Shown: positions 101-43,150 of the stretch, in pieces | Layout: every line of letters begins with the position of its first letter | Position numbering within the stretch: the first letter of the stretch is position 1 | IMG/VR virus record: IMGVR_UViG_3300045988_011398 | DNA length: 64,000 nucleotides | Direction: 5' to 3' (one strand) | From: a virus | The notes under the pieces: generated by a model | Seen by the model: the letters and a program-made list of their open reading frames with translations, nothing else | What the model was told of the DNA's origin: nothing | Databases searched by the model: none | Made by a program: the position numbers and the translations under genes

Positions 101-1633
101 ATGAAAGAAGCAATTTTATTAACTGATGGTTACAAGTTGGACCATAGGAGACAGTATCCTGAAGGCACTGAGTATGTGTACTCAAATTGGACACCAAGGA
201 GCTGTGCATACTTTCCTGAGGCTGAAGAAGGAGCTGTGGTATTTGGCATCCAATACTTCATTAAGGAGTATCTGATAAGGCAATTCCAAGAGAACTTCTT
301 CAATCTTCCTAAGGATGTGGCAGTCAAATCTTTCAAGAGGAGAATTGACACATTCTTGGGTGAAGGCAATCAAGTAGGCACAAAGCACATTGAGGAGCTA
401 CATGATTTAGGTTATTTACCTATTAGAATAAAGGCTCTTCCTGAAGGCACATTATGTCCTATCAGAGTACCAGCACTCACATTCATCAACACCCATCCTG
501 ATTTCTTCTGGCTTACTAACTACTTTGAGACTCTTATCTCTACAACTCTATGGTTGCCTATGACAAGTGCAACTACTGCAAGGTTGTATAAGAAGGAGTT
601 GATAAGACATGCAAGAAAGACTGGATTCAAGGATGTAGACCTTAACTTCCTTATACATGACTTCTCTATGAGAGGCATGGCTGGAGTGGAAGCTGCCATT
701 ATGTCAGGTATGGGTCATATGACTTCATTCTGTGGCAGTGAGACTATTCCTGCTATTGGTGCATTGGAGGAATACTACAATGCCAATGCAGAAAGAGAGC
801 TTATTGCAGCTACAATTCCAGCAACAGAGCACAGTGTCATGTGTGCAGGAGGTAAGGAAGATGAATTGGAGACATTCAGAAGACTCATTACTAAGGTATA
901 TCCTACTGGATTTGTATCTATTGTATCTGACACATGGGATTTCTGGAAGGTAATGACAGAATATCTGCCTAAGTTGAAGGATGAAATCCTTGCAAGGGAT
1001 GGTAGATTAGTCATAAGACCTGACAGTGGAGACCCAGTACACATCATTGCAGGATACAAGTATGAGGATTTTGAGACTTGGCAGGAGCAGACAGAGGTAC
1101 AGAACAGAATGAGTAGCACTGCTGAGTGGGTAGGTGCTTATCAAGTTCTGTGGGACATCTTTGGTGGTACTGTCAATGAGAAAGGTTACAAAGTACTCAA
1201 TCCCAAGGTAGGTATCATCTATGGTGATTCCATTACTCTTGAGAGACAGAAGGAAATCTACAAGAGACTTGAAGAAAGAGGATTTGCAGCTACTAATCTT
1301 GTACTTGGTGTAGGCTCATATACATATCAGTATAAGAGCAGGGATTCTCTTGGCTTTGCTATGAAGGCTACTTGGTGTCAGGTTAATGGAGAGGGAAGAG
1401 AAATCTTCAAAGACCCTAAAACTGATAGTGGCACTAAGAAATCTTTGAAGGGGCTAATCAGTGTGGAACTCATGTCTGATGGCACTTACAAGGCTATTGA
1501 CCAAGTAACTCCTCAGCAGGAACAACTGGGTAATCTGGAGACAGTCTTTGAGGATGGCAAACTTCTCAAAGATTGGAGTTTAAGGGATATAAGAAAGAGT
1601 GTAGATGAAAGCATTTTGTCATCCCTTCAATGA
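101..1633 (+). CDS. Nicotinamide phosphoribosyltransferase (NAMPT/NadV) family enzyme; candidate Namat of a NARP1-type pathway
   Basis: 510-aa ORF. N-terminus ILLTDGYKLDHRRQYP matches the NAMPT-family TDSYK..H..QYP signature, and the length is typical of type II PRTases. A-rich leader before the ATG. Confidence 0.85.
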   Translation: MKEAILLTDGYKLDHRRQYPEGTEYVYSNWTPRSCAYFPEAEEGAVVFGIQYFIKEYLIRQFQENFFNLPKDVAVKSFKRRIDTFLGEGNQVGTKHIEELHDLGYLPIRIKALPEGTLCPIRVPALTFINTHPDFFWLTNYFETLISTTLWLPMTSATTARLYKKELIRHARKTGFKDVDLNFLIHDFSMRGMAGVEAAIMSGMGHMTSFCGSETIPAIGALEEYYNANAERELIAATIPATEHSVMCAGGKEDELETFRRLITKVYPTGFVSIVSDTWDFWKVMTEYLPKLKDEILARDGRLVIRPDSGDPVHIIAGYKYEDFETWQEQTEVQNRMSSTAEWVGAYQVLWDIFGGTVNEKGYKVLNPKVGIIYGDSITLERQKEIYKRLEERGFAATNLVLGVGSYTYQYKSRDSLGFAMKATWCQVNGEGREIFKDPKTDSGTKKSLKGLISVELMSDGTYKAIDQVTPQQEQLGNLETVFEDGKLLKDWSLRDIRKSVDESILSSLQ

Positions 1634-2799: not shown

Positions 2800-2996
2800 A
2801 AACAAGTACAATAAGTAAGCTGGTGGTATGGGTTATCTTATTTATAATCCTACTTAATGTAGGATTTAGTATGATAACAATGCCCAATACAATAGGAAAT
2901 GTGATTGGGTTTCTTATTGTAGTAGCTATAGTGGTTATTTCAATCAAAACAAAGTGTTTAACATCAATTAAATTACAAAGAAAACATGAAAAGTAA
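2796..2996 (+). CDS. Small two-TM membrane protein
   Basis: 66 aa with two hydrophobic helices. ATGA overlap with the upstream gene. Confidence 0.45.
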   Translation: MKTSTISKLVVWVILFIILLNVGFSMITMPNTIGNVIGFLIVVAIVVISIKTKCLTSIKLQRKHEK

Positions 2997-3822
2997 GTTT
3001 ATTACAGGACTTCTGTTCACCTTTATGGTGATGACAAGTATGATGTTCACCTCTTGTGGTTATGAGAGGGTGGATGCTGGTTATGAGGGTATCAAAGTGA
3101 ACCTTTATGGTGATGACAAGGGAGTGGATGACATTACTCTTGTCACTGGTGCAGTATGGTATAATCCTATTACTACTGCTGTGTATGAGTATCCTACATT
3201 TGTACAGACTGTGGACTATGCTCCCTTCAGTATCAATGCCAAAGATGGTAGCTCATTTACAGTAGACCCTACTATCTCCTTGAAGATTGTGGATGGTAAA
3301 TCTGCTGAGGTATTCAAGAAGTATAGGAAAGAGGATATTACCGAGGTTATCAATACAACTCTATACAACTATGTAAGGAATGCTTTCAGAATCCAGTTGA
3401 ATAATTACACTACTGATGAACTGGTAAGCAAGAGAGAAGAGTTTGAGAAAGCCATTGAGGAAAGATTGTCTAAGGAGTTGCTTGCTGAGAATTTTCAATT
3501 GGAGCAAATGACTTCAGGTCTGCAATATCCTCAGACTCTTGTAAATGCTATTGATGCAAAGAATGCAGCAGTTCAAGAAGCTCAGAAAGCACAGAATGAG
3601 GTATTGAAGATTAAGGCAGAAGCTGAGAAGAAGATTGCAGCAGCAGATGGTGAAGCACAGGCTTTGAAAATCAAGGGTGATGCAGAAGCAGAGTATAATA
3701 GAAAGATTGCTGCATCCTTATCTCCTTTGATTGTACAGCAAATGATGCTTGACAAGTGGGATGGTAAATTGCCTGTATATGGCACAGTGCCTACATTATT
3801 CAAAGATATAGCAGGTAAATAG
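2986..3822 (+). CDS. SPFH/band-7 (prohibitin/stomatin-like) lipoprotein
   Basis: N-terminal signal with lipobox-like FTSC. SPFH-like core followed by an Ala/Glu/Lys-rich coiled coil (AQKAQNEVLKIKAEAEKKIAAADGEAQALKIKGDAEAEY), typical of band-7 proteins. Confidence 0.7.
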   Translation: MKSKFITGLLFTFMVMTSMMFTSCGYERVDAGYEGIKVNLYGDDKGVDDITLVTGAVWYNPITTAVYEYPTFVQTVDYAPFSINAKDGSSFTVDPTISLKIVDGKSAEVFKKYRKEDITEVINTTLYNYVRNAFRIQLNNYTTDELVSKREEFEKAIEERLSKELLAENFQLEQMTSGLQYPQTLVNAIDAKNAAVQEAQKAQNEVLKIKAEAEKKIAAADGEAQALKIKGDAEAEYNRKIAASLSPLIVQQMMLDKWDGKLPVYGTVPTLFKDIAGK

Positions 3823-3823
3823 T

Positions 3824-4162
3824 ATGTGGTGGATTATTATAGCTATCATATTTATTCTCACTACTGTCTGTGTACTCAAAGATACTCATGTCAAAGTATA
3901 TGATGGTGGCTACTATGCTAAATTACAAGAGGAGTATGACCTCAAGTTACCTATATGGGCATTACTGCTCATAATACTTGTGTGTCTTATCCCTATTGTA
4001 AACATTATAGCATTTGTAGCTTTCCTTGTTTTCTACATTGTACATGCAGTATGGGACCCCAGAGAATGTGATGGTGAGACTCATGTGTTCTCATTAAATG
4101 GGAATAACTGGGTAACTAAAAGCCTGTTGGCAATAAAAGAAATATTAAACAAGAAGATATGA
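3824..4162 (+). CDS. Membrane protein (about 3 TM), holin-like candidate
   Basis: 112 aa with three hydrophobic segments. Sits immediately upstream of, and ATGA-coupled to, a muramidase-type gene. Confidence 0.4.
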   Translation: MWWIIIAIIFILTTVCVLKDTHVKVYDGGYYAKLQEEYDLKLPIWALLLIILVCLIPIVNIIAFVAFLVFYIVHAVWDPRECDGETHVFSLNGNNWVTKSLLAIKEILNKKI

Positions 4163-4671
4163 AACAAAGAGTATTCAATGTACTCATTTCTCTTGCAGTA
4201 TTAGGTCTGGGGGCTATAGTGCTCTCAGACCACTACAAGGGAGATGACCCACCTCAATATGAGGTGGTGGATGTCAAATTAGTGCAACCAGAGTTTCTGT
4301 TATCAGAAAATCCTGAGGAGGACTTAATTGCTGTAATGAACTATTATGGGGTAAAACACCCTGAAATAGTCTATGCACAAGCAATTCTTGAGACAGGACA
4401 CTTTAGGTCAAAGGTATATAGGGAGTGTAACAATTTGTTCGGTCTGTATAATAGCAGGACTGAAAGCTACTATAAATTTGACCACTGGTCAGAGAGTGTG
4501 GTTGCCTATCTTGACTTCATACAGGACAGATATAAACCTCCGAATGATTATTACAAGTTTTTATCAGATATAGGGTATGCAGAAGACCCTGAGTACATTA
4601 ACAAGTTGAAAAGAATAGTAAATCAATATGACAAAAGAAGAACTACAGATACAGTCTTTATCATTGATTAA
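4159..4671 (+). CDS. Membrane-anchored N-acetylglucosaminidase-domain peptidoglycan hydrolase (candidate endolysin)
   Basis: N-terminal TM/signal anchor (VFNVLISLAVLGLGAIVL). Core AQAILETGHFRS...NNLFG matches the mannosyl-glycoprotein endo-beta-N-acetylglucosaminidase (LytD/FlgJ-type) signature. Confidence 0.7.
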   Translation: MKQRVFNVLISLAVLGLGAIVLSDHYKGDDPPQYEVVDVKLVQPEFLLSENPEEDLIAVMNYYGVKHPEIVYAQAILETGHFRSKVYRECNNLFGLYNSRTESYYKFDHWSESVVAYLDFIQDRYKPPNDYYKFLSDIGYAEDPEYINKLKRIVNQYDKRRTTDTVFIID

Positions 4672-9146: not shown

Positions 9147-10094
9147 ATGAATAAGAATAATAAAACTAATAAACTGTTCATGGCATTTGCCACTGGTAAG
9201 GAATCCACAGAAGGTAATGTAGTAAAGAGATACATTGGAGTTGCTCCTGTATTTGTACTGGCAGTAAATCCTTCTAAGGCAGAGCTTGAGAAACTGTATG
9301 ACACAGAGCTTGAGAATGCTCCTGAGTATATGGGTGAGACTGAGATTGGTCAGGAAGGTGCTAAGTATAAAGTACCTCAGGTGAGACTTGATTTCATTGT
9401 GCAGACTGACCCTGAGAAGTCTAATGGCATTGACATGAAGACTAAGGTATCTTTCTTCCTTGCTAAGGAGGTAAGATACAACAGAGATGGTAGCAAAGTA
9501 CAGGTAATCAATAAGTATGGTGAGACTACTTGGCTTCCTATTGAGGATGCTAAGGCAGGTAGAGTACCTGAGAGTCTCAGTTGGTTTGAGCCTGCTGACT
9601 TCAGACCTGCATTTATTGGTGAAGAGGAACTCACTGGCTTTATCAAGGCTTATCTGAATATCCCTAACAAGTCTTACAGAAAGAAGAATGGTGAAGTAGT
9701 TGAACTGAAAGACAAGTCTGAGGCAGAAGCAAGACTTGACAAGATTCAGGACTACTTCAAGGGAGATTTCTCTGAGCTGAGAAATGTGATTGCACTTCAG
9801 CCTAAGAATAAGGTTAAGTGTATGTTCGGTGTAAGAACTACTGATGATAATAAGCAGTATCAGGCTGTTTATACTCAGAAGTTCTTGAAGAACAATATCA
9901 CTGATTACAGCAAGCTGGATGAGGAATTGCAGGAGAGAAAGGCTGCTGGTGCTTATCCTACTACAGAGTTCAGTGTGTGTGATTTGAAGGAGTATGCAGT
10001 AGAGTCCACTGATTTCAGTGGTAGTGCAGATGATGGTGATATGCCATTTGATGCACCAAGTACAGGTGCTCCCTCTCCTTGGTTTGGTAAATAA
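9147..10094 (+). CDS. Probable ssDNA-binding protein (T7 gp2.5-like)
   Basis: 315 aa, placed between the recombination ATPase and the primase. Acidic C-terminal tail with aromatic residues (DDGDMPFD...PWFGK), as in gp2.5-type SSBs. Weak call. Confidence 0.45.
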   Translation: MNKNNKTNKLFMAFATGKESTEGNVVKRYIGVAPVFVLAVNPSKAELEKLYDTELENAPEYMGETEIGQEGAKYKVPQVRLDFIVQTDPEKSNGIDMKTKVSFFLAKEVRYNRDGSKVQVINKYGETTWLPIEDAKAGRVPESLSWFEPADFRPAFIGEEELTGFIKAYLNIPNKSYRKKNGEVVELKDKSEAEARLDKIQDYFKGDFSELRNVIALQPKNKVKCMFGVRTTDDNKQYQAVYTQKFLKNNITDYSKLDEELQERKAAGAYPTTEFSVCDLKEYAVESTDFSGSADDGDMPFDAPSTGAPSPWFGK

Positions 10095-10116: not shown

Positions 10117-11121
10117 ATGGCATTCAGTTCTGGTAAAAGTTCTGTGAGCCTTGAAGACATCCTAAGTAGAGTGACAGAAGCAGATATTCTGTCATACTAC
10201 TTGGGTATCACAGAGGTTCCTTGTATAATTCACTCTCCTCTGAGGGAGGACAGAAGACCATCATTTGGTTTATATTCTATTGATGGCAGGAGAATATTCT
10301 ATACTGATTTATCTACAAGAGATAGAGGAGGTCTGTTTGACCTGCTTGGTCAGATGTGGAATTGCAGTTATAAAGAGGTTCTTGAGAGAGTTAATGAGGA
10401 TATGTCCAAGTTTAAGGTAGGTTCTCATATTAAATCATATACTCCCTGTAATGTGATGACTGCAAACAGTTATAGCAAGACTACTGACCTTCAATGCAAG
10501 GTTAGGGAGTGGAGGAAATATGACATTGAGTACTGGGAATCCTATGGGATAACCTTAAAATGGCTTAAATATGCAGAAGTTTACCCCATATCACATAAGA
10601 TTGTCATAAAAGATGGTCATAAATATGTGTTTGGTGCTGATAGATATGCCTATGCTTATGTGGAGCATAAAGAGGGTAAGGTTACTCTCAAAATTTACCA
10701 ACCATTCAATAAGGATGGTTACAAGTGGAGTAACAAACATGACACATCAGTAATAAGCCTATGGACAAAAGTACCTGAGTATGGGGAGAGAATATGTATC
10801 TGCTCATCTCTCAAGGATGCACTTTGTCTATGGGCTAATACTGGTATTCCTGCTTTGGCTATTCAAGGTGAGGGATACAAAATGAGTGATACTGCTATTA
10901 GTGAACTCAAAAGAAGATACAAGCAAGTATTTATCTTATTTGATAATGATGAAGCTGGTCTCATAGATGGAGAGAAACTGTCAGCATCAACTGGGTTCAC
11001 TAATATAGTATTACCTAAATTTGAAGGAGGGAAGGATATTTCAGACCTGTATCATTCTCTTCAAGACAAAGAAAAGTTCAAAGAAATCATGATAGGTCTG
11101 TTCATTAACAAAAGTGTCTAA
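10117..11121 (+). CDS. DNA primase (degenerate CHC2 finger plus toprim domain)
   Basis: CIIHSPLREDRRPSF resembles the CHC2 primase zinc-finger motif. Toprim motifs ICICSSLKDA and ILFDNDEAG. Confidence 0.7.
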   Translation: MAFSSGKSSVSLEDILSRVTEADILSYYLGITEVPCIIHSPLREDRRPSFGLYSIDGRRIFYTDLSTRDRGGLFDLLGQMWNCSYKEVLERVNEDMSKFKVGSHIKSYTPCNVMTANSYSKTTDLQCKVREWRKYDIEYWESYGITLKWLKYAEVYPISHKIVIKDGHKYVFGADRYAYAYVEHKEGKVTLKIYQPFNKDGYKWSNKHDTSVISLWTKVPEYGERICICSSLKDALCLWANTGIPALAIQGEGYKMSDTAISELKRRYKQVFILFDNDEAGLIDGEKLSASTGFTNIVLPKFEGGKDISDLYHSLQDKEKFKEIMIGLFINKSV

Positions 11122-11141: not shown

Positions 11142-11849
11142 ATGGAAGCAAGAAAAATTACAGTTGTTTCTACGAGAAATCAGAAGAAGAGTGTAATCAT
11201 GTCAGCAGCTACTACTTTGGCTGAATTGAAAGCTGACTTGAGACAGAATGGTATTGACTATAATGGTATGACCTTCTATGAAGGTACTTCCAAAGTAGAA
11301 TTGAAGGATGATGCTTCGGTTCTTCCTCATGATGTGCCTTACAAAGGTCAGACTACCAATGAGTTGGTATTCATGCTGACCAATACTAACAAGAAAATCA
11401 GAAGTGGTGCAGATATGAGCAGAGCAGATGCTTATGCTGCAATCAAAGCAAATGGCTTGCAGGAAGAGTGTGTAAAGAGATTTGGCAAGAACTTCACTAT
11501 GTGTAAGACTGCTGACCTTATTGCACTTGTAAATGAGAAGTCTGCACCTGCAAAAGAGCCTGTAAAAGAGACTCCTGCAAAGGAAGAGGAAGTAGCTGAA
11601 ACCAAAAAGGAGGAAGCTAAAGAACAGGCTGGCACTGCTGAGTGTGTAGATACTAAGGCAAGAGCTGCACTCTCCAGACTGCTTACTATCCTCACAGACA
11701 ATGGTACTCTTGAGGATGATGAAGCAGAGGAGATTGAAGACATTCTTGGTGGTAAAGTTGAAGTGGCTGCCTCTGAGGACTACAAGCCTTCTTCTGCATC
11801 TCCTTACTCTGATGATGAGATTGACAGAATGTTTGACTTTGCAAGATAA
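11142..11849 (+). CDS. Hypothetical protein with a ubiquitin-like-looking N-terminal region, SAP-like helices and an acidic tail
   Basis: 235 aa. Residues about 4-95 show a beta-beta-alpha-beta...beta pattern ending KKIRSG. The middle has helix-extended-helix segments, and the Glu/Lys-rich C-terminal half contains ILGG. Confidence 0.4.
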   Translation: MEARKITVVSTRNQKKSVIMSAATTLAELKADLRQNGIDYNGMTFYEGTSKVELKDDASVLPHDVPYKGQTTNELVFMLTNTNKKIRSGADMSRADAYAAIKANGLQEECVKRFGKNFTMCKTADLIALVNEKSAPAKEPVKETPAKEEEVAETKKEEAKEQAGTAECVDTKARAALSRLLTILTDNGTLEDDEAEEIEDILGGKVEVAASEDYKPSSASPYSDDEIDRMFDFAR

Positions 11850-11867: not shown

Positions 11868-11909
11868 AATAGGTGGGTGGATAGAAATGTCCCCCACCTA
11901 TTTTTTTTT
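11868..11909 (+). terminator. Rho-independent terminator
   Basis: Stem aataggtggg (11868-11877) pairs with cccacctatt (11893-11902), followed by a T9 run (11901-11909). Confidence 0.8.
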
Positions 11910-11916
11910 ATTCTGT

Positions 11917-13203
11917 ATGAATGAATTAATAGAAAATAAAATAGAGGAACTGCATTCCCTACTTATGGATAAGCCTAATCAAGTGTTGACTATATTCAAT
12001 GACTTCTTTGGTGAGGATAAAGTAGATATGCAGGGATTTATGAGTGTTGATAAACTCAAGTCATGGCTTGATGTAACTCCTATCTCTGAGTATGCCTCAC
12101 GAGAGTCACTTGGTATGAGCAGGGAGGATTACAACACTTATGGAAGGCAGTCCTTAACTGACCTTAGAGGTGAGGTACTTGATTTAGTTCTTAGCCGACT
12201 TTGTAGTGGGTGGGTGGTGGATAGTATAGGACAGAAAAAATTTGGTTCAGGGTTCATACTTGTGCATTTTCCTCATGTGAGAATTACTAATGAGTATAAT
12301 AGATTTGTGGATATTAATCATTTGTATGCAAAGGTTAAGGTACTTCACAATGGCTCAATGAATGGCTATTTTGCTCTTAACAGAGCTGAATATACCTATC
12401 TTCATATTAGTAATGGGTATATGCACTCTCATGTAAGTAGTATTCCTACAAGTGACTTCACTCAGTTTCAGAACCCATGTACAGGAACTGGTCCTATTAA
12501 TGATACTATGTCCAATCTCAGTAGGGAATTTGATTCTGATATATGGAGGTTATTCTGTCTTGAATTGAGCAAGTATGTTGAGGTAGAATCCATTGCAGGA
12601 ACTCCTTATCATAGGTTAGAGAATCTTGGTACTTCAAATATGAGTGCTGGAGAAGGTGTATTCAAAGTAGTTAATCATCTTGACTATTATGGAGATGGTA
12701 TAGAAGGGATGATTAAAGACTTTGTTTCCTACTTTATCAAGCAGGGTAAACTGAAGTTCAACTATGCTAATGGGAGTTATTCCATTGGTATGTCTTTTAC
12801 TGAGTATATGCTTGTAATCAGTAATGAGTTCATTGATTGGTACAATAAGAAGTTCAATAACAAAGAATTGAGATATACCTTTGACACTCTCAAGAGGAAC
12901 AGTGTATTGAAGGAGGGTATCATAGCAAATAATAAAATTTATTATGAAAATTCCCGTCGCAATGTAAATTCATATGCAGCTTACAATGGTAAGAGGATGT
13001 GTACTTTCAAAGGCACAGATGTGCTTATCAATATTGTAGACCTCAATGAAGTGAAGGAGGATAACAAGTCCATCATACTCAATACCAATATAGCATTGTA
13101 CATATTATCAAAAATTCTCCGTGTAATTAATTATAGGTATGGAAAAGCAGAACAAAGAGACCAAGAAGGTAATAGAATTAGTGAAGAAGTCAGATACTTT
13201 TAA
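11917..13203 (+). CDS. Hypothetical protein (428 aa), first gene of the JAB-E1 cassette
   Basis: The ORF-track start at 11887 lies inside the terminator hairpin and T-run, so the start was moved to the ATG at 11917 (MNELIENK...). No family recognised. Contains MHSHV...NPCTGTGP. Confidence 0.55.
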   Translation: MNELIENKIEELHSLLMDKPNQVLTIFNDFFGEDKVDMQGFMSVDKLKSWLDVTPISEYASRESLGMSREDYNTYGRQSLTDLRGEVLDLVLSRLCSGWVVDSIGQKKFGSGFILVHFPHVRITNEYNRFVDINHLYAKVKVLHNGSMNGYFALNRAEYTYLHISNGYMHSHVSSIPTSDFTQFQNPCTGTGPINDTMSNLSREFDSDIWRLFCLELSKYVEVESIAGTPYHRLENLGTSNMSAGEGVFKVVNHLDYYGDGIEGMIKDFVSYFIKQGKLKFNYANGSYSIGMSFTEYMLVISNEFIDWYNKKFNNKELRYTFDTLKRNSVLKEGIIANNKIYYENSRRNVNSYAAYNGKRMCTFKGTDVLINIVDLNEVKEDNKSIILNTNIALYILSKILRVINYRYGKAEQRDQEGNRISEEVRYF

Positions 13204-14386
13204 GCTAATTATACCTGAAGAGGTTGAGAAGAAAATAAGATATATATGCCAGCAAATCTGGAAAGATGAATGGTCTGGCACTCTCTTCTATAAACCAGAA
13301 GGGAGATTTGAAGATGGCACTTTGGCTATCAGATGTGTGGATATTTATGTCATGGACATTGGAACTGCTGCTTATACAGAGTTTGACATGTCTCCTGATG
13401 TAATCAGCTATATGACTGATAATCCTGAGTTGCTTGATTGTCAGATGGGGCTTATTCACTCCCACAATAATATGAGTACTTTCTTCAGTGGCACAGATAC
13501 TGCTACTTTGAAGGAAGAAGGTATGGATAGAAATCACTTTGTATCTTTAATTGTCAATAATGAAGGTACATATACAGCAGCCATTACAAGAAAAGTAAAG
13601 GCTACAAAAACTATCACAGAAAACTTCTCCTATCCTACTTTTGAGGATGAAGAAGTAACAGATACCAAGACTTATACAGTAGAGAGTGAGGAACTTGAGT
13701 GGTTCTATTTGAAGATTGAATTTGAGAGGAGTGGGAGTCCCTTTCAGGAAGAACTCAAGGCAAGACTTGAGGAAATCAAGAAAGCCAAAGCAGAGAAAGC
13801 CAGACAACTTCCACCTAAACAACCTGCATATACTGGTGGGTATGGTAATTGGAAAGGTGGTAAACCTCAGCAAGGCACTTTGTTCCCTGAAGTTGGTAAG
13901 AAAGTGACACAATCTTACACAAGTCAAGTAGGTCCTGCTAATAAGATTGTCAAGAAGAGTGAGGATGAGCTTCCTTTTGATACAGACTATATTGACAATA
14001 AGATTTCTGGTGAAATACCTTATGGTTATATAGAGTTCAATAAGGAAACTATCAAATCACTTGTTCTTCAATTGATTACAGGAAGTATTATTATTCCTAA
14101 TGCAAGCAAGATTGATGTTAAGAAGTGGGCACAGGGTATGGTTCCTCTTTATGAGAGAAGATTTGGTAAAGGTGAGGAAGGAATGAAATTGTTCAAGGCA
14201 TGGGCTGAAGGATATATTGAGTTCCTATGTTGGTTCACTGAAGATGAGGCTCTTGAAGATATGGGATTGGATGATGATGAACTTGCTGCACTATGTGCTC
14301 ATGACATTATTGAAGAGCTTACCAAGTTGCCTGAGAATGTGTATATCAAAGAATACATTGACATTTTAGAAGGATATTTAAGATGA
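13139..14386 (+). CDS. JAB/MPN (JAMM) metalloisopeptidase-domain protein with a C-terminal extension
   Basis: Upstream Glu motif EWSGTLFY plus a complete JAMM motif HSHnnmstffSgtD (nt 13457-13498). About 250 extra C-terminal residues include a Lys/Glu-rich linker. Confidence 0.8.
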   Translation: MEKQNKETKKVIELVKKSDTFKLIIPEEVEKKIRYICQQIWKDEWSGTLFYKPEGRFEDGTLAIRCVDIYVMDIGTAAYTEFDMSPDVISYMTDNPELLDCQMGLIHSHNNMSTFFSGTDTATLKEEGMDRNHFVSLIVNNEGTYTAAITRKVKATKTITENFSYPTFEDEEVTDTKTYTVESEELEWFYLKIEFERSGSPFQEELKARLEEIKKAKAEKARQLPPKQPAYTGGYGNWKGGKPQQGTLFPEVGKKVTQSYTSQVGPANKIVKKSEDELPFDTDYIDNKISGEIPYGYIEFNKETIKSLVLQLITGSIIIPNASKIDVKKWAQGMVPLYERRFGKGEEGMKLFKAWAEGYIEFLCWFTEDEALEDMGLDDDELAALCAHDIIEELTKLPENVYIKEYIDILEGYLR

Positions 14387-15486
14387 ATGAAATAGAAGAA
14401 AGAAATAGCTTAGACCCAGAAGAGGTGGCTCAGAGTGCAACTGAGTCTGATATATCTTATGTAGGTGCTGTACAGCTCAATACAATACTTCTTGGTATAA
14501 GAGAAGGTATTATTCCTACCATTGAGCCTTATGATGAAGCCCCTCACACATACAAGCTGTACTTTAATGATGGGTTTATCCTTTACATTAATGAACATCA
14601 GTACAGTATGATAATTGAGGAAATCAGAAATCATGAAGGCACAGAAGAAGAACTTATTGAATCTCTTCCTGACAGTGAAGATTCTTCCCCTCTTTCAGAA
14701 GAAGAGGAAGAGTTGTTAGCACAGGTAGTGGAGGCAGCACACAATGAAATTCCCACAAACTCTGGCTCACTGCTTATAGATGAGTCTACTTCAAGATTCA
14801 GTTCTGCCATTTGGTATGAAGCAATTCAAAGGAAGACTGTTATACTTGCAGGTGTTGGTGGCATTGGCAGTTATGTGGGCTTCTTATTGGCAAGGATGAA
14901 ACCTGCTGCACTCTTTATTTATGACCCAGATATAGTTGAAACTGTCAATATGTCAGGTCAGTTATATAGTAGAGAAGATGTAGGGAATCCTAAGGTAAGT
15001 GCCCTCTCAGGGATGATTAGTAAGTATTGTGACTACAATAGTGTATTTGCAGTTCCTGAAAGATTTGATGAGTCAAATGATGCTTCTGACATTATGATTT
15101 GTGGCTTTGATAATATGGCTGCAAGAAAGACTTTCTTCAACAAGTGGTTAGACCATGTAAGAGGTAAGTCAGAAGCAGAAAGAGCTAATTGCCTGTATAT
15201 AGATGGAAGATTGGCAGCAGAAGAGTTCCAAGTACTCTGTATCAAAGGAGATGATGAGTTCAATATCAATAGATATGAGAAGGAGTTCTTATTCTCTGAT
15301 ATAGAGGCAGATGCAACAGTTTGTTCATATAAGCAAACTACATTCATGGCTAACATGATTGCATCTGTGATGGTCAATTTATTTGTGAACTTTGTAGCAA
15401 ACCAATGTGAGCCTCTTATTGATAGAGACCTGCCATTCTATACTACATACAGTGCAGAAACTATGTACTATAAAACTGAAGCATAA
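14383..15486 (+). CDS. ThiF/MoeB/E1-like adenylyltransferase with an N-terminal extra domain
   Basis: Rossmann loop ILAGVGGIGSYVG (nt about 14851-14868). Also DPDIVETVNMSGQ, matching the D.D.v..sNl.RQ region with Arg replaced by Gly, and an E1-type DNMAAR motif. An acidic linker separates a domain of about 110 aa at the N-terminus. Confidence 0.8.
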   Translation: MNEIEERNSLDPEEVAQSATESDISYVGAVQLNTILLGIREGIIPTIEPYDEAPHTYKLYFNDGFILYINEHQYSMIIEEIRNHEGTEEELIESLPDSEDSSPLSEEEEELLAQVVEAAHNEIPTNSGSLLIDESTSRFSSAIWYEAIQRKTVILAGVGGIGSYVGFLLARMKPAALFIYDPDIVETVNMSGQLYSREDVGNPKVSALSGMISKYCDYNSVFAVPERFDESNDASDIMICGFDNMAARKTFFNKWLDHVRGKSEAERANCLYIDGRLAAEEFQVLCIKGDDEFNINRYEKEFLFSDIEADATVCSYKQTTFMANMIASVMVNLFVNFVANQCEPLIDRDLPFYTTYSAETMYYKTEA

Positions 15487-16259
15487 TGGAGTATAGCTGG
15501 AGATATGAAAACACTCTGATGAGAGTATTTCTTGGGTGTGATGACACAGCAGTAAGTGATGTGTCTAATACAGAAACTACACTTGACAATCATAATGCCT
15601 TCAACAGATTATTTGTAATTGATGTGTCCTCAGATGAGATTGAGGTTCCTGTCTTTGCAAGGTTTGTTGTAGAGTCTGTGGTTAGGGGCAAGTTAGAGTT
15701 TCCATATATAACTCATACAAGTAAGATAGTCATTCCAATGTATGTGAATACATATAATCAGTCAAGGAGAACTGCTGATAGTATAGTGAATGACTTCTTC
15801 TCAAGAGTAAACTTCAATCAGAGATTGCAAAAAGTTACAACAAACAAAGGGGAAGTATATTATGGGGGCAAGGGAATTATATTGGACAAAGACTTCAATA
15901 TCCTGCTTCTGTGCACCATTGTTTGTAGGAGGATGGAACATAGGGGCAGACAAGTGATGTCTTATTACAAGCCTATGATTCATGTAAGCCCTCAGGTATT
16001 CTTGAGGGGTGAGGGTCTGGTAGACAAGTCCATTCTCAAAAAGATTATTCCTTTCTATGTATCACACAATATTGATTCAGTCAATACTCATGCTTATTTC
16101 AGGAGTGATATTCCTGAAGGAACTAAGCCTCAAATACTGATTGATGATGTAAGTAAGTTCATAGAAAATCCTGCCAAACCAACTCCTCAGAAATGCTCAG
16201 ATGATGTGCTGAATCAAATACTTGCAGATAATGCAGATGATGTGCTGAATCAGTTATGA
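15486..16259 (+). CDS. Hypothetical protein (257 aa) with a duplicated C-terminal tail
   Basis: TAATG-coupled to the E1-like gene and ATGA-coupled to the UDG gene. The C-terminus repeats DDVLNQ twice. Confidence 0.55.
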   Translation: MEYSWRYENTLMRVFLGCDDTAVSDVSNTETTLDNHNAFNRLFVIDVSSDEIEVPVFARFVVESVVRGKLEFPYITHTSKIVIPMYVNTYNQSRRTADSIVNDFFSRVNFNQRLQKVTTNKGEVYYGGKGIILDKDFNILLLCTIVCRRMEHRGRQVMSYYKPMIHVSPQVFLRGEGLVDKSILKKIIPFYVSHNIDSVNTHAYFRSDIPEGTKPQILIDDVSKFIENPAKPTPQKCSDDVLNQILADNADDVLNQL

Positions 16260-16933
16260 CACTTGAAGAGTATTTTGGCAGATGGATGAGGGTAATAGAT
16301 AAGAGGGAACTTGAATCTGTATTGAGCAAACTTGGGCCAGAATATAAGAGAAAACCTATTTGTCCTGCACAAAGTAATGTGTTTAAGGCATTTGAGGTTT
16401 GCCCTTATGATAAGCTCAAGGTTGTAATGTTGGGTCAAGACCCATACCCTCAGAAGGGAGTAGCTACTGGGATATTATTTGGCAATAAGGAGGGGACAAG
16501 AGATGAGGACTTGTCTCCTTCTTTGCAAATAATAAAAGAAGCTGCAATAAATTTTGAAATTCCACATAATTGTATTATCTTTGACCCCACATTAGAGAGT
16601 TGGGCAAAGCAAGGAATTTTGATGATTAATTCAGCTCTCACAGTAGAAATGAACAAGATAGGTTCTCATGTGATGCTGTGGAGACCATTCATAGCAAGTC
16701 TATTGAAGAAACTATCTGAGAATGAGACTGGTATAATTTATGTCTTATTTGGTAAACAGGCTCAGACATTCAAGCCTTATATCAATAAGCAGTTTAATAC
16801 TGTATTGGAGGAGAATCATCCTGCATATTTTGCAAGAACAGGTGAAGCAATGCCACATACAGTATTTGAACAAATCAGTAAACTGACAAAAGGAATGTAT
16901 GGGATGCCAATAACTTGGTATCAAGAATATTAA
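16256..16933 (+). CDS. ung: Uracil-DNA glycosylase (family 1-like)
   Basis: GQDPYP (nt 16433-16450, versus canonical GQDPYH), followed by GVATGILFG and a C-terminal HPAYFA (versus HPSPLS). Confidence 0.75.
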   Translation: MTLEEYFGRWMRVIDKRELESVLSKLGPEYKRKPICPAQSNVFKAFEVCPYDKLKVVMLGQDPYPQKGVATGILFGNKEGTRDEDLSPSLQIIKEAAINFEIPHNCIIFDPTLESWAKQGILMINSALTVEMNKIGSHVMLWRPFIASLLKKLSENETGIIYVLFGKQAQTFKPYINKQFNTVLEENHPAYFARTGEAMPHTVFEQISKLTKGMYGMPITWYQEY

Positions 16934-43068: not shown

Positions 43069-43076
43069 GATAAGGA

Positions 43077-43120
43077 TAAAAAGAAAGGGAAGTAGATTAA
43101 GTTCTACTTCCCTTTTTCTT
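43077..43120. terminator. Bidirectional rho-independent terminator between convergent blocks
   Basis: Stem gggaagtaga (43087-43096) pairs with tctacttccc (43103-43112). An A-run lies on the left and a T-run on the right. Confidence 0.8.
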
Positions 43121-43150
43121 TCTCCTTTATAAAAAATTTCACCCTACTGA

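What the first reader, a model, noticed from the sequence alone, without database searches (positions are those of the whole stretch)
11917..16259. Phage-encoded JAB/MPN plus ThiF/E1-like cassette flanked by two unknown genes: a candidate ubiquitin-like conjugation or deconjugation system
Two adjacent, ATGA-coupled genes carry the two enzymatic hallmarks of prokaryotic ubiquitin-like systems.
- One gene has a complete JAMM isopeptidase motif: E..G.L upstream, then HSH-x7-S-xx-D at nt 13457-13498.
- The other has an E1/ThiF adenylation domain: GVGGIG loop at 14851-14868 and a DNMAAR motif. The usual RQ arginine finger reads GQ.
- A 428-aa and a 257-aa protein with no family I can recognise bracket them. 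All four are chained by overlapping stop/start codons, which suggests one functional unit.

JAB plus E1 pairs define bacterial Bil (ISG15-like) and type II CBASS Cap2/Cap3 defence modules and the PRTRC cassettes of conjugative elements. I am not aware of them as a described feature of crAss-like phages. Three readings are possible:
- The phage runs its own Ubl-like conjugation on a host or virion target.
- The JAB protein strips host Bil or CBASS conjugates as a counter-defence.
- The E1-like enzyme does a non-Ubl adenylation chemistry.
Basis: partly seen in the sequence, partly recalled or inferred. Interest (0 to 1): 0.85.

Follow-up and report, generated by a model that had tools for sequence, protein, structure and literature searches.

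The report
Phage-encoded ubiquitin-like protein activation cassette
One family of abundant gut (crAss-like) phages carries, inside its DNA-replication genes, what looks like its own ubiquitin-style tagging kit: a ubiquitin-fold protein made as a precursor, an activating enzyme, a trimming/removing protease and an unknown fourth partner, so far annotated only as 'thiamine biosynthesis' and 'metalloprotease'.

Summary
The region 13139-15486 encodes a JAB/JAMM protein with an intact, invariant E…HSH-x7-S-xx-D motif. It also encodes a minimal ThiF/E1 adenylation enzyme (Pfam 2.7e-15), whose closest solved relative is UBA5.

The gene just upstream (11142-11849) starts with an 89-residue ubiquitin-fold domain. 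AlphaFold gives pLDDT of about 90, and the Foldseek hits are ubiquitin, SUMO, DIX and DWNN. The domain ends in a flexible tail with an invariant K-x-[IV]-[KR]-S-G.

In related phages the gene is split exactly after that Gly by a homing endonuclease. In one lineage it is reduced to a free 89-aa protein ending …SGI.

The Ubl domain and the 428-aa protein each occur in 74 of 50,697 phage records, with the same organism breakdown. The E1 occurs in 83 records whose breakdown includes those groups. These are gut Steigviridae including crAss001 gp79-76, Flavobacterium Fipvunavirus and Dulem virus 41.

No E2 fold was found. The 428-aa protein is a large phage-only family with enzyme-like invariant residues and an unknown fold.

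The best reading is a phage-core system of Ubl processing, activation and probably conjugation. Its target is unknown. I found no description of it in the literature I could search.

The parts
11142..11408 (+). Ubiquitin-like beta-grasp domain (aa 1-89 of the 235-aa protein, the crAss001 gp79 homologue), ending in K84-K-I-R-S88-G89.
   Evidence: AF2 gives the order beta-beta-alpha-beta-(beta-beta)-beta with pLDDT of about 90 and a tail (aa 82-90) at about 61. Foldseek PDB hits are the Mpe1 UBL, DIX, TINCR Ubl, ubiquitin and SUMO1, with probability near 1.0 and TM to target up to 0.71. BFVD hits are homologues followed by giant-virus ubiquitin/Rad23/SUMO-like proteins. K84, S88 and G89 are invariant in 22 diverse sequences.
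11409..11849 (+). C-terminal extension of the Ubl precursor (aa 90-235). It has a three-helix SAP/HeH-like module (94-133), a disordered Lys/Glu-rich linker (135-169), further helices, and an acidic tip …YSDDEIDRMFDFAR.
   Evidence: AF2. Two homologues give weak Pfam SAP hits. It is a separate ORF in L033 and L095, and is absent within 4 kb in L096/L097. Any DNA-binding or replisome-docking role is inference only.
11869..11910 (+). Intrinsic-terminator hairpin plus U9, between the Ubl gene and the enzyme genes.
   Evidence: Folding energy is -23.8 kcal/mol with z -5.0. A hairpin plus T-run sits at the same place in 53 of 56 distinct related intergenic sequences, with different stem sequences, including Fpv3.
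11917..13203 (+). 428-aa protein of unknown fold (the crAss001 gp78 homologue). It is an obligate partner of the cassette with enzyme-like invariant residues.
   Evidence: Invariant over 101 representatives: N125, Y168, S171, H172, C188, G190, G192, P193, E216, E224, S225, G228 and P230. Near-invariant: E126, R156 and H170. The family has 2101 clusters at 50% identity. It occurs in 74 phage records, the same number and organism breakdown as the Ubl domain. It has no family or structure match.
13139..14386 (+). JAB/JAMM (MPN+) metallopeptidase domain (about aa 20-160), a linker and a conserved helical C-terminal domain (about aa 290-415). This is the crAss001 gp77 homologue.
   Evidence: The motif E44…H107-S-H109-x7-S117-x2-D120 is invariant. 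See also Pfam Prok-JAB, PADLOC JAB and PDB JAMM1/CSN5/Rpn11-like.
13457..13498 (+). The JAMM zinc-site motif HSH-x7-S-xx-D.
14383..15486 (+). Minimal ThiF/MoeB/UBA5-type E1 adenylation enzyme (core aa ~130-367) with a variable acidic N-terminal extension. This is the crAss001 gp76 homologue.
   Evidence: Pfam ThiF scores 2.7e-15 and PDB UBA5 scores 2.7e-16. Conserved residues are R138, G157xGGxG162, D181, K204, D243-N-x3-R248 and C314.
15322..15324 (+). Cys314 of the E1 (motif T-x-C-S-Y-K-Q-T-T), a candidate catalytic or thioester cysteine.
   Evidence: It is conserved in the crAss-like phages, Fpv3 and Dulem virus 41. Its equivalence to MoeB C187, ThiF C184 or UBA5 C250 rests on my own alignment from memory. 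HMMER alignments stop at the DNxxxR motif.
15486..16259 (+). 257-aa protein of unknown function (the crAss001 gp75 homologue). It is translationally coupled to the E1 and to UDG, and is possibly lineage-specific.
   Evidence: It is syntenic in all Steigviridae-like loci. Only P55, Y125 and G130 are invariant. It has no family or PDB match. Homology to the positional equivalents in Fpv3 and Dulem virus 41 is unproven.

Best explanation
This is a phage-encoded ubiquitin-like protein (Ubl) system that belongs to the core middle (replication) gene block of gut Steigviridae and their relatives.

Shown from sequence and structure prediction:
- Gene 11142-11849 encodes a ubiquitin-fold domain with a flexible tail ending in an invariant Ser-Gly, followed by a dispensable C-terminal extension.
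- Behind a conserved terminator lie translationally coupled genes. They encode a 428-aa protein of unknown fold, a JAMM metallopeptidase with an intact active-site motif, and a minimal UBA5/ThiF-like E1 with an intact nucleotide loop, Mg/ATP residues and a conserved Cys.

Inferred mechanism:
1. The JAB protein cuts the precursor directly after Gly89. In the lineages with a free Ubl it removes only the last one or two residues. This is what BubCD does to BubAB and what DUBs do to ubiquitin-fusion precursors.
2. The E1, probably a homodimer, adenylates the exposed Gly89 carboxylate and may take it onto Cys314.
3. The Ubl is passed to lysines of an unknown phage or host target. Transfer could be direct, as in E2-independent archaeal sampylation, or go through the 428-aa protein acting as a non-UBC transfer or specificity factor, with invariant Cys188 and His170/His172 as candidate residues.
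4. The JAB enzyme can also reverse the modification.

The fixed position among primase, UDG, nucleases and ribonucleotide reductase, the vertical inheritance, and E1 conservation equal to that of primase and UDG all point to a role in the phage's own replication or host-takeover programme. They do not suggest a swappable anti-defence gene.
For: Ubl:
- AF2 predicts a beta-grasp domain. Foldseek hits are ubiquitin, SUMO, DIX and DWNN and viral ubiquitin-like proteins.
- K84, S88 and G89 are invariant in 22 diverse sequences.
- The gene is split exactly after SG by an HNH homing endonuclease in L033 and L095, with the C-terminal part kept as its own ORF.
- 33 cluster representatives end at most 3 residues after the Gly.
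- A lineage on 93-107 kb contigs has a free 89-aa Ubl ending …ASGI, no C-terminal part within 4 kb, and still keeps the JAB gene.

Enzymes:
- E1 family membership and conserved catalytic residues.
- The invariant JAMM motif.

Linkage:
- The Ubl domain and the 428-aa protein each occur in 74 of 50,697 phage records, with identical organism breakdowns. The E1 occurs in 83 records whose breakdown includes those groups, plus unrelated lone E1s.
- The gene order is the same in about 80 IMG/VR loci, in Flavobacterium phage Fpv3 and in Dulem virus 41.
- The genes are translationally coupled.
- Against crAss001, the E1 core is 68% identical, the same as primase and UDG.

Precedent:
- JAB cleavage of a Ubl-fusion precursor right after the conserved Gly is shown for type I Bub (PMC11601596).
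- The same cleavage was predicted for lambda TAPI/TAPK (PMC1779556).
- The replication block of crAss001 is transcribed as middle genes (PMC8375218).
Against: - No E2/UBC fold was detected in any cassette protein.
- The AF2 model of the 428-aa protein failed in its conserved core, so the transfer step is guesswork.
- The E1 lacks the Arg of the NxxRQ motif (Gly192), which contacts ATP phosphates in MoeB-type enzymes. It also has no CxxC zinc motifs. Adenylation activity is therefore not assured.
- The Ubl ends in Ser-Gly, not Gly-Gly.
- No target, conjugate or cleavage product has been observed. Everything after the fold and motif assignments is inference.
- JAB plus E1 plus a small beta-grasp protein also defines sulfur-carrier pathways.
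- The JAB domain scores below Pfam's threshold and its fold was not modelled here.
Confidence: 0.6

Rival explanations
1. Sulfur-carrier system. The Ubl is adenylated by the E1 and converted to a C-terminal thiocarboxylate, as happens with ThiS/ThiF, MoaD/MoeB, CysO/Mec and TtuB/TtuC. The sulfur is then used, perhaps by the 428-aa protein, to thiolate a nucleotide, tRNA or cofactor during phage replication. JAB only exposes the Gly.
For: - The best NCBIfam hits of the E1 are ThiF/MoeB-type models.
- The E1 is a minimal single-domain enzyme with a Cys that I place at the ThiF C184 / MoeB C187 position (by-eye alignment from memory).
- JAB peptidases process sulfur carriers in known pathways (PMC1779556).
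- The cassette sits among nucleotide-metabolism genes.
- The 428-aa protein has an invariant Cys.
Against: - All ThiF/MoeB model scores are far below their cut-offs, for example 65 against 159 bits. The closest solved relative is UBA5, a protein-conjugation E1.
- The window region and its crAss001 counterpart contain no rhodanese domain, cysteine desulfurase, PP-loop ATPase, or ThiG/MoaE-type acceptor.
- The tail ends in Ser-Gly rather than the near-universal Gly-Gly of sulfur carriers (my own knowledge).
- A Ubl fused to a large extension is typical of conjugation-type precursors.
Confidence: 0.13
2. Counter-defence. The JAB protein strips host Ubl conjugates (Bil-type) or cGAS conjugates (type II CBASS). 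Alternatively the phage Ubl and E1 act as decoys or competitors for a host ubiquitin-like immune pathway.
For: - Bacterial Ubl/E1/JAB systems known so far act in anti-phage immunity, and Bil tags a phage tail protein (PMC11601596).
- The E1 core gives weak PADLOC Cap2 hits, and the JAB domain gives weak PADLOC JAB hits.
- JAB is kept even where the Ubl needs only one residue removed.
Against: - The cassette is a vertically inherited, positionally fixed part of the replication block across deep phage lineages, and its E1 is as conserved as primase and UDG. Anti-defence genes are usually sporadic and fast-evolving (general knowledge).
- A deconjugase alone would not need its own Ubl precursor, E1 and 428-aa partner in strict co-occurrence.
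- The PADLOC matches cover only the generic adenylation core.
- Whether the Bacteroides or Flavobacterium hosts carry Bil or type II CBASS was not tested.
Confidence: 0.1
3. Non-Ubl adenylation chemistry. The E1-like enzyme modifies a peptide, nucleotide or RNA, as MccB, PaaA and TcdA do. The neighbouring beta-grasp protein and JAB are functionally unrelated or only structural.
For: - With the single sequence, the best solved relatives are MccB and UBA5, followed by TcdA and PaaA.
- The unusual Gly in NMSGQ may mean altered chemistry.
- Lone E1 homologues occur in Xanthomonas, Acinetobacter and Moraxella phages without the partner genes.
Against: - The E1 occurs in the same phage groups as a ubiquitin-fold protein with an invariant terminal Gly, and lies beside a JAMM peptidase.
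- With a family profile, UBA5 becomes the top hit at 2.7e-16.
- MccB and PaaA have a peptide-clamp N-terminal domain. Here the N-terminal extension is variable and often absent.
Confidence: 0.07
4. Ordinary thiamine-biosynthesis ThiF plus an unrelated metalloprotease, as the public annotations say.
For: The GenBank product names for crAss001 gp76 and gp77 and their copies.
Against: - ThiF equivalog models score far below their cut-offs.
- There is no ThiS/ThiG/ThiH/ThiC context.
- The gene order and co-occurrence with the Ubl and JAB are conserved.
Confidence: 0.02

Closest known systems
Type I Bub (6E/DUF6527) operons: BubAB Ubl-E2 fusion, BubCD JAB-E1 fusion, BubE protease
   Same: In Bub, the Ubl is made as a fusion precursor and is cut by the system's own JAB immediately after a conserved Gly. 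JAB lies directly upstream of, or fused to, a single-domain E1 (PMC11601596). BubCD is among the PDB relatives of the phage E1 (3e-6).
   Different: - Bub is bacterial and linked to defence. This cassette is a core phage module.
- Here the fused partner is a helical, acidic, SAP-like extension, not an E2.
- There is no DUF6527 protein.
- The phage E1 keeps a conserved Cys, whereas Bub works through Tyr/Ser oxyesters.
- The 428-aa family has no Bub counterpart.
Bil (bacterial ISG15-like) systems: BilA Ubl, BilB E2, BilC JAB, BilD E1
   Same: Both combine a Ubl, a JAB and an E1 with one further protein in a four-gene unit.
   Different: [quoted passage not shown] The phage E1 core is about 230 aa with one domain.
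- No UBC E2 was detected here.
Archaeal sampylation (SAMP / UbaA / HvJAMM1) and Thermus TtuB/TtuC
   Same: Both have a small beta-grasp modifier, a single minimal E1 and a JAMM protease, and conjugation proceeds without any E2 (my own knowledge; the SAMP1/HvJAMM1 paper is listed). The UbaA model gives a weak hit to the phage E1.
   Different: - SAMPs end in Gly-Gly, double as sulfur carriers and are cellular.
- There is no 428-aa or 257-aa partner.
- The UbaA model score is far below its cut-off (25.6 against 450 bits).
UFM1 / UBA5
   Same: UBA5 is the closest solved relative of the phage E1 (2.7e-16). It is a minimal homodimeric E1 whose Cys lies in the adenylation domain. UFM1 ends in a single Gly after removal of a two-residue extension (my own knowledge), which resembles the SG+2 forms seen here.
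   Different: UFM1/UBA5 is eukaryotic and has a dedicated E2 (UFC1) and E3. Its trimming proteases are Cys proteases, not JAMM.
Type II CBASS Cap2 (E2-E1) / Cap3 (JAB)
   Same: Both pair an E1 with a JAB. The E1 core gives PADLOC Cap2 hits at 1e-9 and PDB Cap2 hits at 1e-8.
   Different: There is no CD-NTase and no E2 domain. The matches cover only the adenylation core. In CBASS the substrate is the cGAS-like enzyme's own C-terminus, not a Ubl.
PRTRC cassettes of conjugative elements
   Same: Both have a ThiF-related and a JAB-related (PRTRC_A) protein on a mobile element. Bacteroidota hosts carry such cassettes (my own knowledge).
   Different: The NCBIfam scores are far below the cut-offs: PRTRC_ThiF 35.9 against 144.75, and PRTRC_A 13.7 against 101.8. 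No other PRTRC protein and no ParB was matched.
Lambda/T1 tail assembly proteins TAPI (Ubl) and TAPK (JAB+NlpC/P60)
   Same: This is the only previously described phage pairing of a Ubl bearing a C-terminal Gly and an extra C-terminal domain with a JAB peptidase predicted to cut after that Gly (PMC1779556).
   Different: It is a tail-assembly module with no E1 and unrelated sequences, and it lies in the structural gene block rather than the replication block.
Eukaryotic ubiquitin-fusion precursors (Ub-ribosomal protein fusions, polyubiquitin)
   Same: The modifier is synthesised fused to an unrelated protein and is released by a deubiquitinase (textbook knowledge).
   Different: The extension here is not a ribosomal protein, and it is dispensable in some lineages.

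Membership tests
ThiF/MoeB/E1 adenylation superfamily | Rossmann-type adenylation domain recognised by the family profile above the curated threshold | tested here: met
   Pfam PF00899 scores 56.6 bits against a cut-off of 28.1, E 2.7e-15. A profile search of the PDB finds 70 E1-family chains, with UBA5 best at 2.7e-16.
ThiF/MoeB/E1 adenylation superfamily | GxGxxG nucleotide loop, acidic residue after beta-2, conserved Lys, and the DNxxxR Mg/ATP motif | tested here: met
   G157xGGxG162, D181, K204 and D243-N-x3-R248 are conserved across crAss-like, Fpv3, Dulem virus 41 and Xanthomonas phage E1s.
ThiF/MoeB/E1 adenylation superfamily | Arg of the N[LM]xRQ motif | tested here: not met
   The motif reads NMSG192Q. 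The Gly is nearly invariant in the phage family, while MccB has NLTRQ and UBA5 has NMNRL. The consequence for activity is unknown.
ThiF/MoeB/E1 adenylation superfamily | Catalytic or acyl-acceptor Cys after the adenylation core | tested here: inconclusive
   C314 is conserved. Its structural equivalence to ThiF C184, MoeB C187 or UBA5 C250 rests on a by-eye alignment from memory. HMMER alignments end at position 128 of the profile.
ThiF proper (thiamine biosynthesis) | Equivalog-level score and ThiS/ThiG context | tested here: not met
   PRK08644 scores 65.5 against 159 bits, TIGR02354 scores 53 against 152, and TIGR02356 scores 36 against 275. There are no thi genes nearby.
JAB/JAMM (MPN+) metallopeptidases | Motif E … H-x-H-x7-S-x2-D | tested here: met
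   E44, H107, H109, S117 and D120 are invariant in 21 sequences of 29-75% identity.
JAB/JAMM (MPN+) metallopeptidases | Family profile above the curated threshold, or an MPN fold | tested here: inconclusive
   Pfam Prok-JAB scores 21 bits against a cut-off of 25. PDB JAMM1 scores 0.033, CSN5 0.29 and Rpn11-like 0.67 with the profile. PADLOC JAB scores 0.012.
Ubiquitin-like modifiers | Beta-grasp fold | tested here: met
   AF2 gives pLDDT of about 90 for aa 1-81 with ubiquitin's strand order. The top 50 PDB hits are nearly all ubiquitin-superfold proteins, most with probability 0.9-1.0 and TM to target up to 0.71. There is no sequence-level match to any Pfam Ubl family.
Ubiquitin-like modifiers | Flexible C-terminal tail ending in Gly that is exposed by processing | tested here: met
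   S88-G89 are invariant and the tail has pLDDT 61. Natural ORFs stop 1-2 residues after the Gly, and one lineage has a free Ubl. Cleavage itself has not been observed.
Ubiquitin-like modifiers | Covalent attachment to targets | not testable with these tools
   This needs biochemistry or proteomics.
E2 / UBC fold enzymes | A UBC-fold protein with a catalytic Cys (or Ser) in the cassette | tested here: not met
   - No Pfam UBC or Prok-E2 hit for any cassette protein, nor for 101 members of the 428-aa family.
- hhalign against a five-member E2 profile gives probability 0.1% for the 428-aa family and 0.2% for the 257-aa family.
- The AF2 model of the 428-aa core was unusable, so a very divergent E2 is not excluded.
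Bil system | BilD-type E1 (IAD-AAD-CYS) plus a BilB E2 | tested here: not met
   The E1 has a single adenylation domain of about 230 aa, and no E2 was found. The Bil definition is taken from PMC11601596.
Type II CBASS | CD-NTase plus a Cap2 E2-E1 fusion plus Cap3 | tested here: not met
   PADLOC hits cover only about profile positions 330-460 of Cap2, which is the E1 core. The region has no nucleotidyltransferase.
PRTRC cassette | PRTRC_ThiF, PRTRC A-F and a ParB-related protein above the NCBIfam cut-offs | tested here: not met
   The scores are 35.9 against 144.75 and 13.7 against 101.8, with no other PRTRC model hit.
Type I Bub | Ubl-E2 fusion, JAB-E1 fusion and a DUF6527 Ser-His protease | tested here: not met
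   The fused extension is helical and disordered, not UBC. JAB and E1 are separate genes. There is no PF20137 hit. Only the logic of the processing step is shared.

The most novel reading that the evidence does not exclude
Gut Steigviridae and related phages run a self-contained, virus-encoded ubiquitin-like conjugation pathway during genome replication. A previously unrecognised Ubl family is made as a fusion precursor. It is activated by a UBA5-like minimal E1 and handed on by the 428-aa protein. That protein would be a new, non-UBC class of Ubl-transfer or ligase enzyme, with an invariant His-x-His…Cys constellation. The Ubl ends up on replisome or host proteins, and the JAMM enzyme both matures the Ubl and erases the mark.
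Probability: 0.3. Interest if true: 0.92.

Novelty: new variant of a known kind. Interest (0 to 1): 0.8.

Why it matters
Ubiquitin-like conjugation in prokaryotes has so far been described as cellular. It appears in sulfur transfer, in archaeal sampylation, and most recently in anti-phage immunity (CBASS, Bil, Bub). Here the virus itself carries a full-looking kit of modifier precursor, activating enzyme and JAMM protease. The kit is a conserved core module of one of the most abundant phage families of the human gut, including the cultured model crAss001 (gp79-gp75).

Three things follow.
- It makes directly testable whether phages use protein tagging to run replication or take over the host.
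- It supplies an unrecognised Ubl family that only structure prediction reveals, together with a large phage-only protein family (2101 clusters) that may be a new kind of transfer enzyme.
- It corrects widespread annotation as 'thiamine biosynthesis protein'.

A concrete proteomic handle exists. In the window phage and its relatives with …[KR]-S-G, trypsin would leave a Ser-Gly remnant (+144.053 Da) on modified lysines.

Tried and rejected
Dead ends:
- A near-identical DNA search in INPHARED found nothing.
- The first homologue search with the full 235-aa protein returned only relatives above 90% identity and was of little use for modelling.
- AF2 of the 428-aa protein, using a 54-sequence alignment, gave a confident N-terminal helical domain only (aa 1-115). 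The conserved core had pLDDT below 50. Foldseek on that model gave nothing, with best E 0.6 and probability 0.05.
- Profile searches with the 428-aa family (24 and 101 sequences) and the 257-aa family against PDB sequences found nothing. Scans of the 428-aa family members against Pfam, and of the window 428-aa and 257-aa proteins against Pfam, NCBIfam, PHROGs and PADLOC, found no annotated family.
- The Xanthomonas jumbo-phage E1 neighbourhood (an 892-aa ORF and a 70-aa ORF) shows no homology to the cassette partners.
- The HMMER alignments to solved E1s stop before the Cys region, so C314 could not be placed objectively.

Ideas tested and rejected:
- The 428-aa core is a second, degenerate JAB/MPN domain, because of its shared 'HSH' motif. 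hhalign against the phage JAB profile gives probability 0.5%.
- The 428-aa or 257-aa protein is a recognisable E2. hhalign against an E2 profile gives probabilities of 0.1-0.2%.
- The E1 N-terminal extension is a hidden domain of the system. It is variable, acidic, and absent in Fpv3 and Dulem virus 41.
- The cassette has cellular relatives. The GTDB-wide scan returned only four hits, all in MAG contigs, and I read them as mis-binned phage contigs.
- The cassette is a member of PRTRC, Bil or CBASS. Defining features were tested and not met.

Literature searches linking crAss-like phages, Crassvirales, crAss001 or Flavobacterium phages with ThiF, JAB or ubiquitin found nothing relevant. A 2023 Crassvirales review does not contain the words ThiF, thiamine, metalloprotease or ubiquitin.

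Full report
**What the window is.** The 64-kb window is a crAss-like phage. It has no near-identical DNA relative among 50,697 deposited phage genomes. Its proteins are collinear with the replication block of Bacteroides phage crAss001, gp82 to gp69 (Steigviridae, Asinivirinae). The plus-strand genes around the finding are listed below.

| Coordinates | Product | crAss001 homologue |
|---|---|---|
| 9147-10094 | 315-aa protein | gp81 |
| 10117-11121 | Toprim primase | gp80 |
| 11142-11849 | 235-aa protein | gp79 |
| 11917-13203 | 428-aa protein | gp78 |
| 13139-14386 | JAB protein | gp77 |
| 14383-15486 | E1 | gp76 |
| 15486-16259 | 257-aa protein | gp75 |
| 16256-16933 | UDG | gp74 |

Downstream come an endonuclease, a PD-(D/E)XK exonuclease and an anaerobic ribonucleotide reductase. 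In crAss001 this block is transcribed as 'middle' genes, 10-30 min after infection (PMC8375218).

**The observation: JAB.** The JAB protein has E44-W-S-G-T-L and H107-S-H-x7-S117-x2-D120 (nt 13457-13498). These residues are invariant in 21 homologues that are only 29-75% identical. Profile evidence is weak but points one way:
- Pfam Prok-JAB scores E 3.3e-4, which is below the gathering score.
- PADLOC JAB scores 0.012.
- PDB hits are JAMM1, CSN5 and an Rpn11-like protein.

**The observation: E1.** The E1 is a secure member of the ThiF/E1 superfamily, with Pfam E 2.7e-15 above threshold.
- With a family profile, the best solved relative is UBA5 at 2.7e-16, ahead of PaaA, MccB, Uba1, TcdA, ThiF, MoeB, Cap2 and BubCD.
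- R138, the GxGGxG loop, D181, K204, D243-N-x3-R248 and C314 are conserved from the crAss-like phages to Flavobacterium phage Fpv3 and Dulem virus 41.
Gly192 sits where MccB and UBA5 have Arg.
- That position is the NxxRQ motif. The N-terminal Arg (R138) is intact.

**The observation: gene junctions.** Three junctions are tight overlaps: ATGA, TAATG and ATGA. The junction between the 428-aa gene and the JAB gene is a 65-nt overlap. The conserved N-terminus of the JAB protein supports that start. The last ATGA couples the 257-aa gene to UDG.

**The missing piece: a ubiquitin-like precursor.** In 22 diverse homologues this domain ends in an invariant K-x-[IV]-[KR]-S-G.
- AlphaFold, run on a 101-sequence alignment, folds residues 1-81 with pLDDT of about 90 in the order β-β-α-β-(β-β)-β.
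- The tail (aa 82-90) is flexible, with pLDDT 61.
- After it come a three-helix module, a disordered Lys/Glu-rich stretch and more helices.
- Foldseek against the PDB returns almost only ubiquitin-superfold proteins: the Mpe1 UBL/DWNN, DIX, the TINCR Ubl, ubiquitin and SUMO1. Probabilities are near 1.0 and TM to the target reaches 0.71.
- Against predicted viral structures it returns its own homologues and then giant-virus ubiquitin, Rad23 and SUMO-like proteins.
- No Pfam Ubl family sees the domain at the sequence level.

**Natural experiments at the Ser-Gly.** In a cr106_1-like phage (L033) the gene is broken exactly after …KKIKSG. The N-terminal ORF ends SGKF. An HNH homing-endonuclease gene follows, and the C-terminal part continues as its own ORF. 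The same layout occurs in L095, where the ORF ends SGIC. Among metagenomic proteins, 33 cluster representatives stop at most 3 residues after the Gly. Their tails are KF, IC, IY, KC and others, and several sit on contigs of 92-101 kb. One lineage on 93-107 kb contigs (L096, L097) has only a free 89-aa protein ending …ASGI.
- It is followed after 68 nt by the 428-aa gene.
- No C-terminal part lies within 4 kb.
- The JAB, E1 and 257-aa-like genes are all present.

So the β-grasp domain is the functional unit and the extension is dispensable. The boundary is precisely the Gly. This is what one expects if the JAB enzyme releases a modifier with a C-terminal Gly. Exactly that processing is shown biochemically for BubAB/BubCD (PMC11601596) and was predicted for lambda TAPI/TAPK (PMC1779556).

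**Linkage of the parts.** In the phage genome collection the Ubl domain and the 428-aa protein are each found in 74 records, with identical organism breakdowns:
- 29 Bacteroides crAss-like isolates
- 29 Flavobacterium psychrophilum phages
- 12 uncultured crAss records
- bajarodcaudo virus, Kehishuvirus, Kolpuevirus and Dulem virus 41, one record each

The E1 is found in 83 records whose breakdown includes those same groups. The remainder are lone E1s in Xanthomonas, Acinetobacter and Moraxella phages, which lack the partners. All of about 80 IMG/VR loci keep the order primase, Ubl, 428-aa, JAB, E1, 257-aa, UDG.
- Fpv3 keeps the block Ubl, 428-aa, JAB, E1 even though UDG sits elsewhere.
- Dulem virus 41 has a compact version with a 235-aa E1 and a Ubl ending …KKVSSG.
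- The 257-aa protein cannot be shown to be homologous to the gene in the same position in Fpv3 or Dulem virus 41. I therefore count it as a lineage-specific fifth member.
- Against crAss001 the E1 core is 68% identical, as conserved as primase and UDG. The 428-aa, JAB and 257-aa proteins are 34-46% identical.

The family looks phage-only. A GTDB-wide scan found four hits, all in MAG contigs, which I read as mis-binned phage contigs.

**The 428-aa protein.** This is the main unknown.
- It is a large family: 1927 hits in the word-indexed search and 2101 clusters at 50% identity in the exhaustive search.
- It has a variable helical N-terminal domain and a conserved core.
- The core carries N125/E126, R156, Y168-x-H170-S171-H172, C188-x-G-x-G-P, E216 and E224-S225-x2-G-x-P. 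These residues are invariant or nearly so over 101 representatives, and are kept in Fpv3 and Dulem virus 41.
- That pattern looks enzymatic. Nothing recognises it, however: not Pfam, NCBIfam, PHROG annotation, PADLOC or PDB sequences.
- Profile-profile comparison rejects a relationship to the phage JAB domain and to eukaryotic E2s.
- AlphaFold failed on the core and the fold search was empty.

Its strict co-occurrence with the Ubl and E1 makes it a component of the system. Calling it an E2/E3 analogue is a hypothesis only.

**How it most likely works.**
- Shown: the folds and motifs of the Ubl, E1 and JAB, their linkage, and the domain boundary at Gly89.
- Inferred: JAB cuts after Gly89. The E1 adenylates Gly89 and perhaps forms a thioester at C314. 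The Ubl is then transferred to lysines of unknown phage or host proteins, either directly as in E2-free sampylation or via the 428-aa protein. JAB also deconjugates.

A strong intrinsic terminator lies between the Ubl gene and the enzyme genes (ΔG -23.8 kcal/mol, z -5.0). It is positionally conserved in 53 of 56 distinct related sequences, with different stems. This would let the modifier be made in excess over its enzymes. That reading is my inference.

**Rival explanations.**
- Sulfur carrier. The cassette contains no sulfur-mobilising or acceptor enzyme, and the E1 is closest to UBA5. The idea cannot be excluded without chemistry.
- Counter-defence. The cassette is a deep, vertically inherited core module with its own modifier, which does not fit this reading well.
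- MccB/TcdA-like non-Ubl chemistry. The Ubl and JAB linkage argues against it.
- The deposited name 'thiamine biosynthesis protein'. The evidence contradicts it.

**Comparison with known systems.**
- In processing logic the cassette works most like type I Bub.
- In E1 type it is closest to UFM1/UBA5.
- In its minimal enzyme set it is closest to archaeal sampylation.
- It is not a member of Bil, type II CBASS, PRTRC or Bub. Defining features of each were tested and not met.
- The only earlier phage Ubl-JAB pairing I know of, lambda TAPI/TAPK, lacks an E1 and belongs to tail assembly.

**Novelty.** I found no paper in the searchable library that links Crassvirales, crAss001 or the Flavobacterium phages to ThiF, JAB or ubiquitin-like systems. 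A 2023 review of the order mentions none of these words. Subscription-only papers could not be searched. I therefore rate this a new variant of a known kind. It is virus-encoded and part of the core genome. It has an unrecognised Ubl family made as a fusion precursor, a minimal E1 with an unusual Gly, no detectable E2, and a new obligate partner family.

**Verdict.**
- Observation: confirmed.
- Interpretation: supported and extended upstream.
- Mechanism: partly inferred. My confidence is about 0.6 for a Ubl processing/activation/conjugation system, and somewhat higher that the Ubl, E1 and JAB act together in some way.
- Interest: 0.8.

Noticed in passing
window 11869-11910: A strong intrinsic terminator (hairpin plus U9; dG -23.8 kcal/mol, z -5.0) lies between the Ubl gene and the enzyme genes. 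A hairpin plus T-run sits at the same position in 53 of 56 distinct related intergenic sequences, with quite different stem sequences, including Flavobacterium phage Fpv3. The consensus terminator scan missed it.
   Followed up: yes
L033 3134-3649; L095 4291-4803: An HNH/NUMOD4 homing-endonuclease gene is inserted exactly after the Ser-Gly codons of the Ubl gene in related phages, splitting it into a 91-92-aa Ubl ORF and a separate C-terminal ORF. The different two-residue tails (KF, IC, KC, IY and others) suggest either repeated events or divergence.
   Followed up: partly
L095 6566-8276: The JAB gene of a related phage is interrupted at the HSH…S catalytic motif by a 298-aa ORF with a faint LAGLIDADG hit. 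This could be an intron or an intein-like insertion. In other loci the UDG hit is only a 103-aa fragment about 1.2 kb further downstream than usual (L062, L067, L069, L072, L073). In L010 the JAB hit is a truncated 302-aa ORF starting about 1.3 kb after the end of the 428-aa gene.
   Followed up: no
window 11715-11849 (aa ~190-235 of the 235-aa protein): The Ubl precursor ends in a conserved acidic tip, …YSDDEIDxMFDF, which resembles the C-terminal protein-docking tips of single-stranded DNA-binding proteins. Residues 94-133 form a SAP/HeH-like three-helix module. This hints at a replisome or DNA link for the extension.
   Followed up: no
window 101-1633: This ORF is a 510-aa nicotinamide phosphoribosyltransferase (Pfam NAPRTase 1.5e-38, NAMPT_N 4.6e-10), an NAD-salvage enzyme encoded by the phage. 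An SPFH/Band 7 protein (2986-3822) and a glucosaminidase (4159-4671) lie nearby.
   Followed up: no
L004 2265-6515 (Xanthomonas phage PhiXhv-15): A jumbo phage has a distantly related minimal E1 (28% identity) flanked by an 892-aa ORF, a 70-aa ORF and a 228-aa ORF. None of them is detectably related to the crAss-type partners. The 70-aa ORF was not checked for a Ubl fold.
   Followed up: partly
window 42000-44000: GC and AT skew change sign where the gene orientation flips. Plus-strand genes run to 43068 and minus-strand genes start at 43151. The flip lies between two giant ORFs: 39031-43068 (1345 aa) and 43151-50065 (2304 aa, minus strand). A third giant ORF (31837-39027, 2396 aa) lies upstream. 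These are probably the virion RNA polymerase and large structural proteins typical of crAss-like phages.
   Followed up: no
window 14383-14760 (E1 aa 1-125): The E1 N-terminal extension varies greatly between relatives, so that whole E1 proteins range from 225 to 472 aa. It is acidic and of low complexity (…EGTEEELIESLPDSEDSSPLSEEEEE…), and is absent in Fpv3 and Dulem virus 41.
   Followed up: partly
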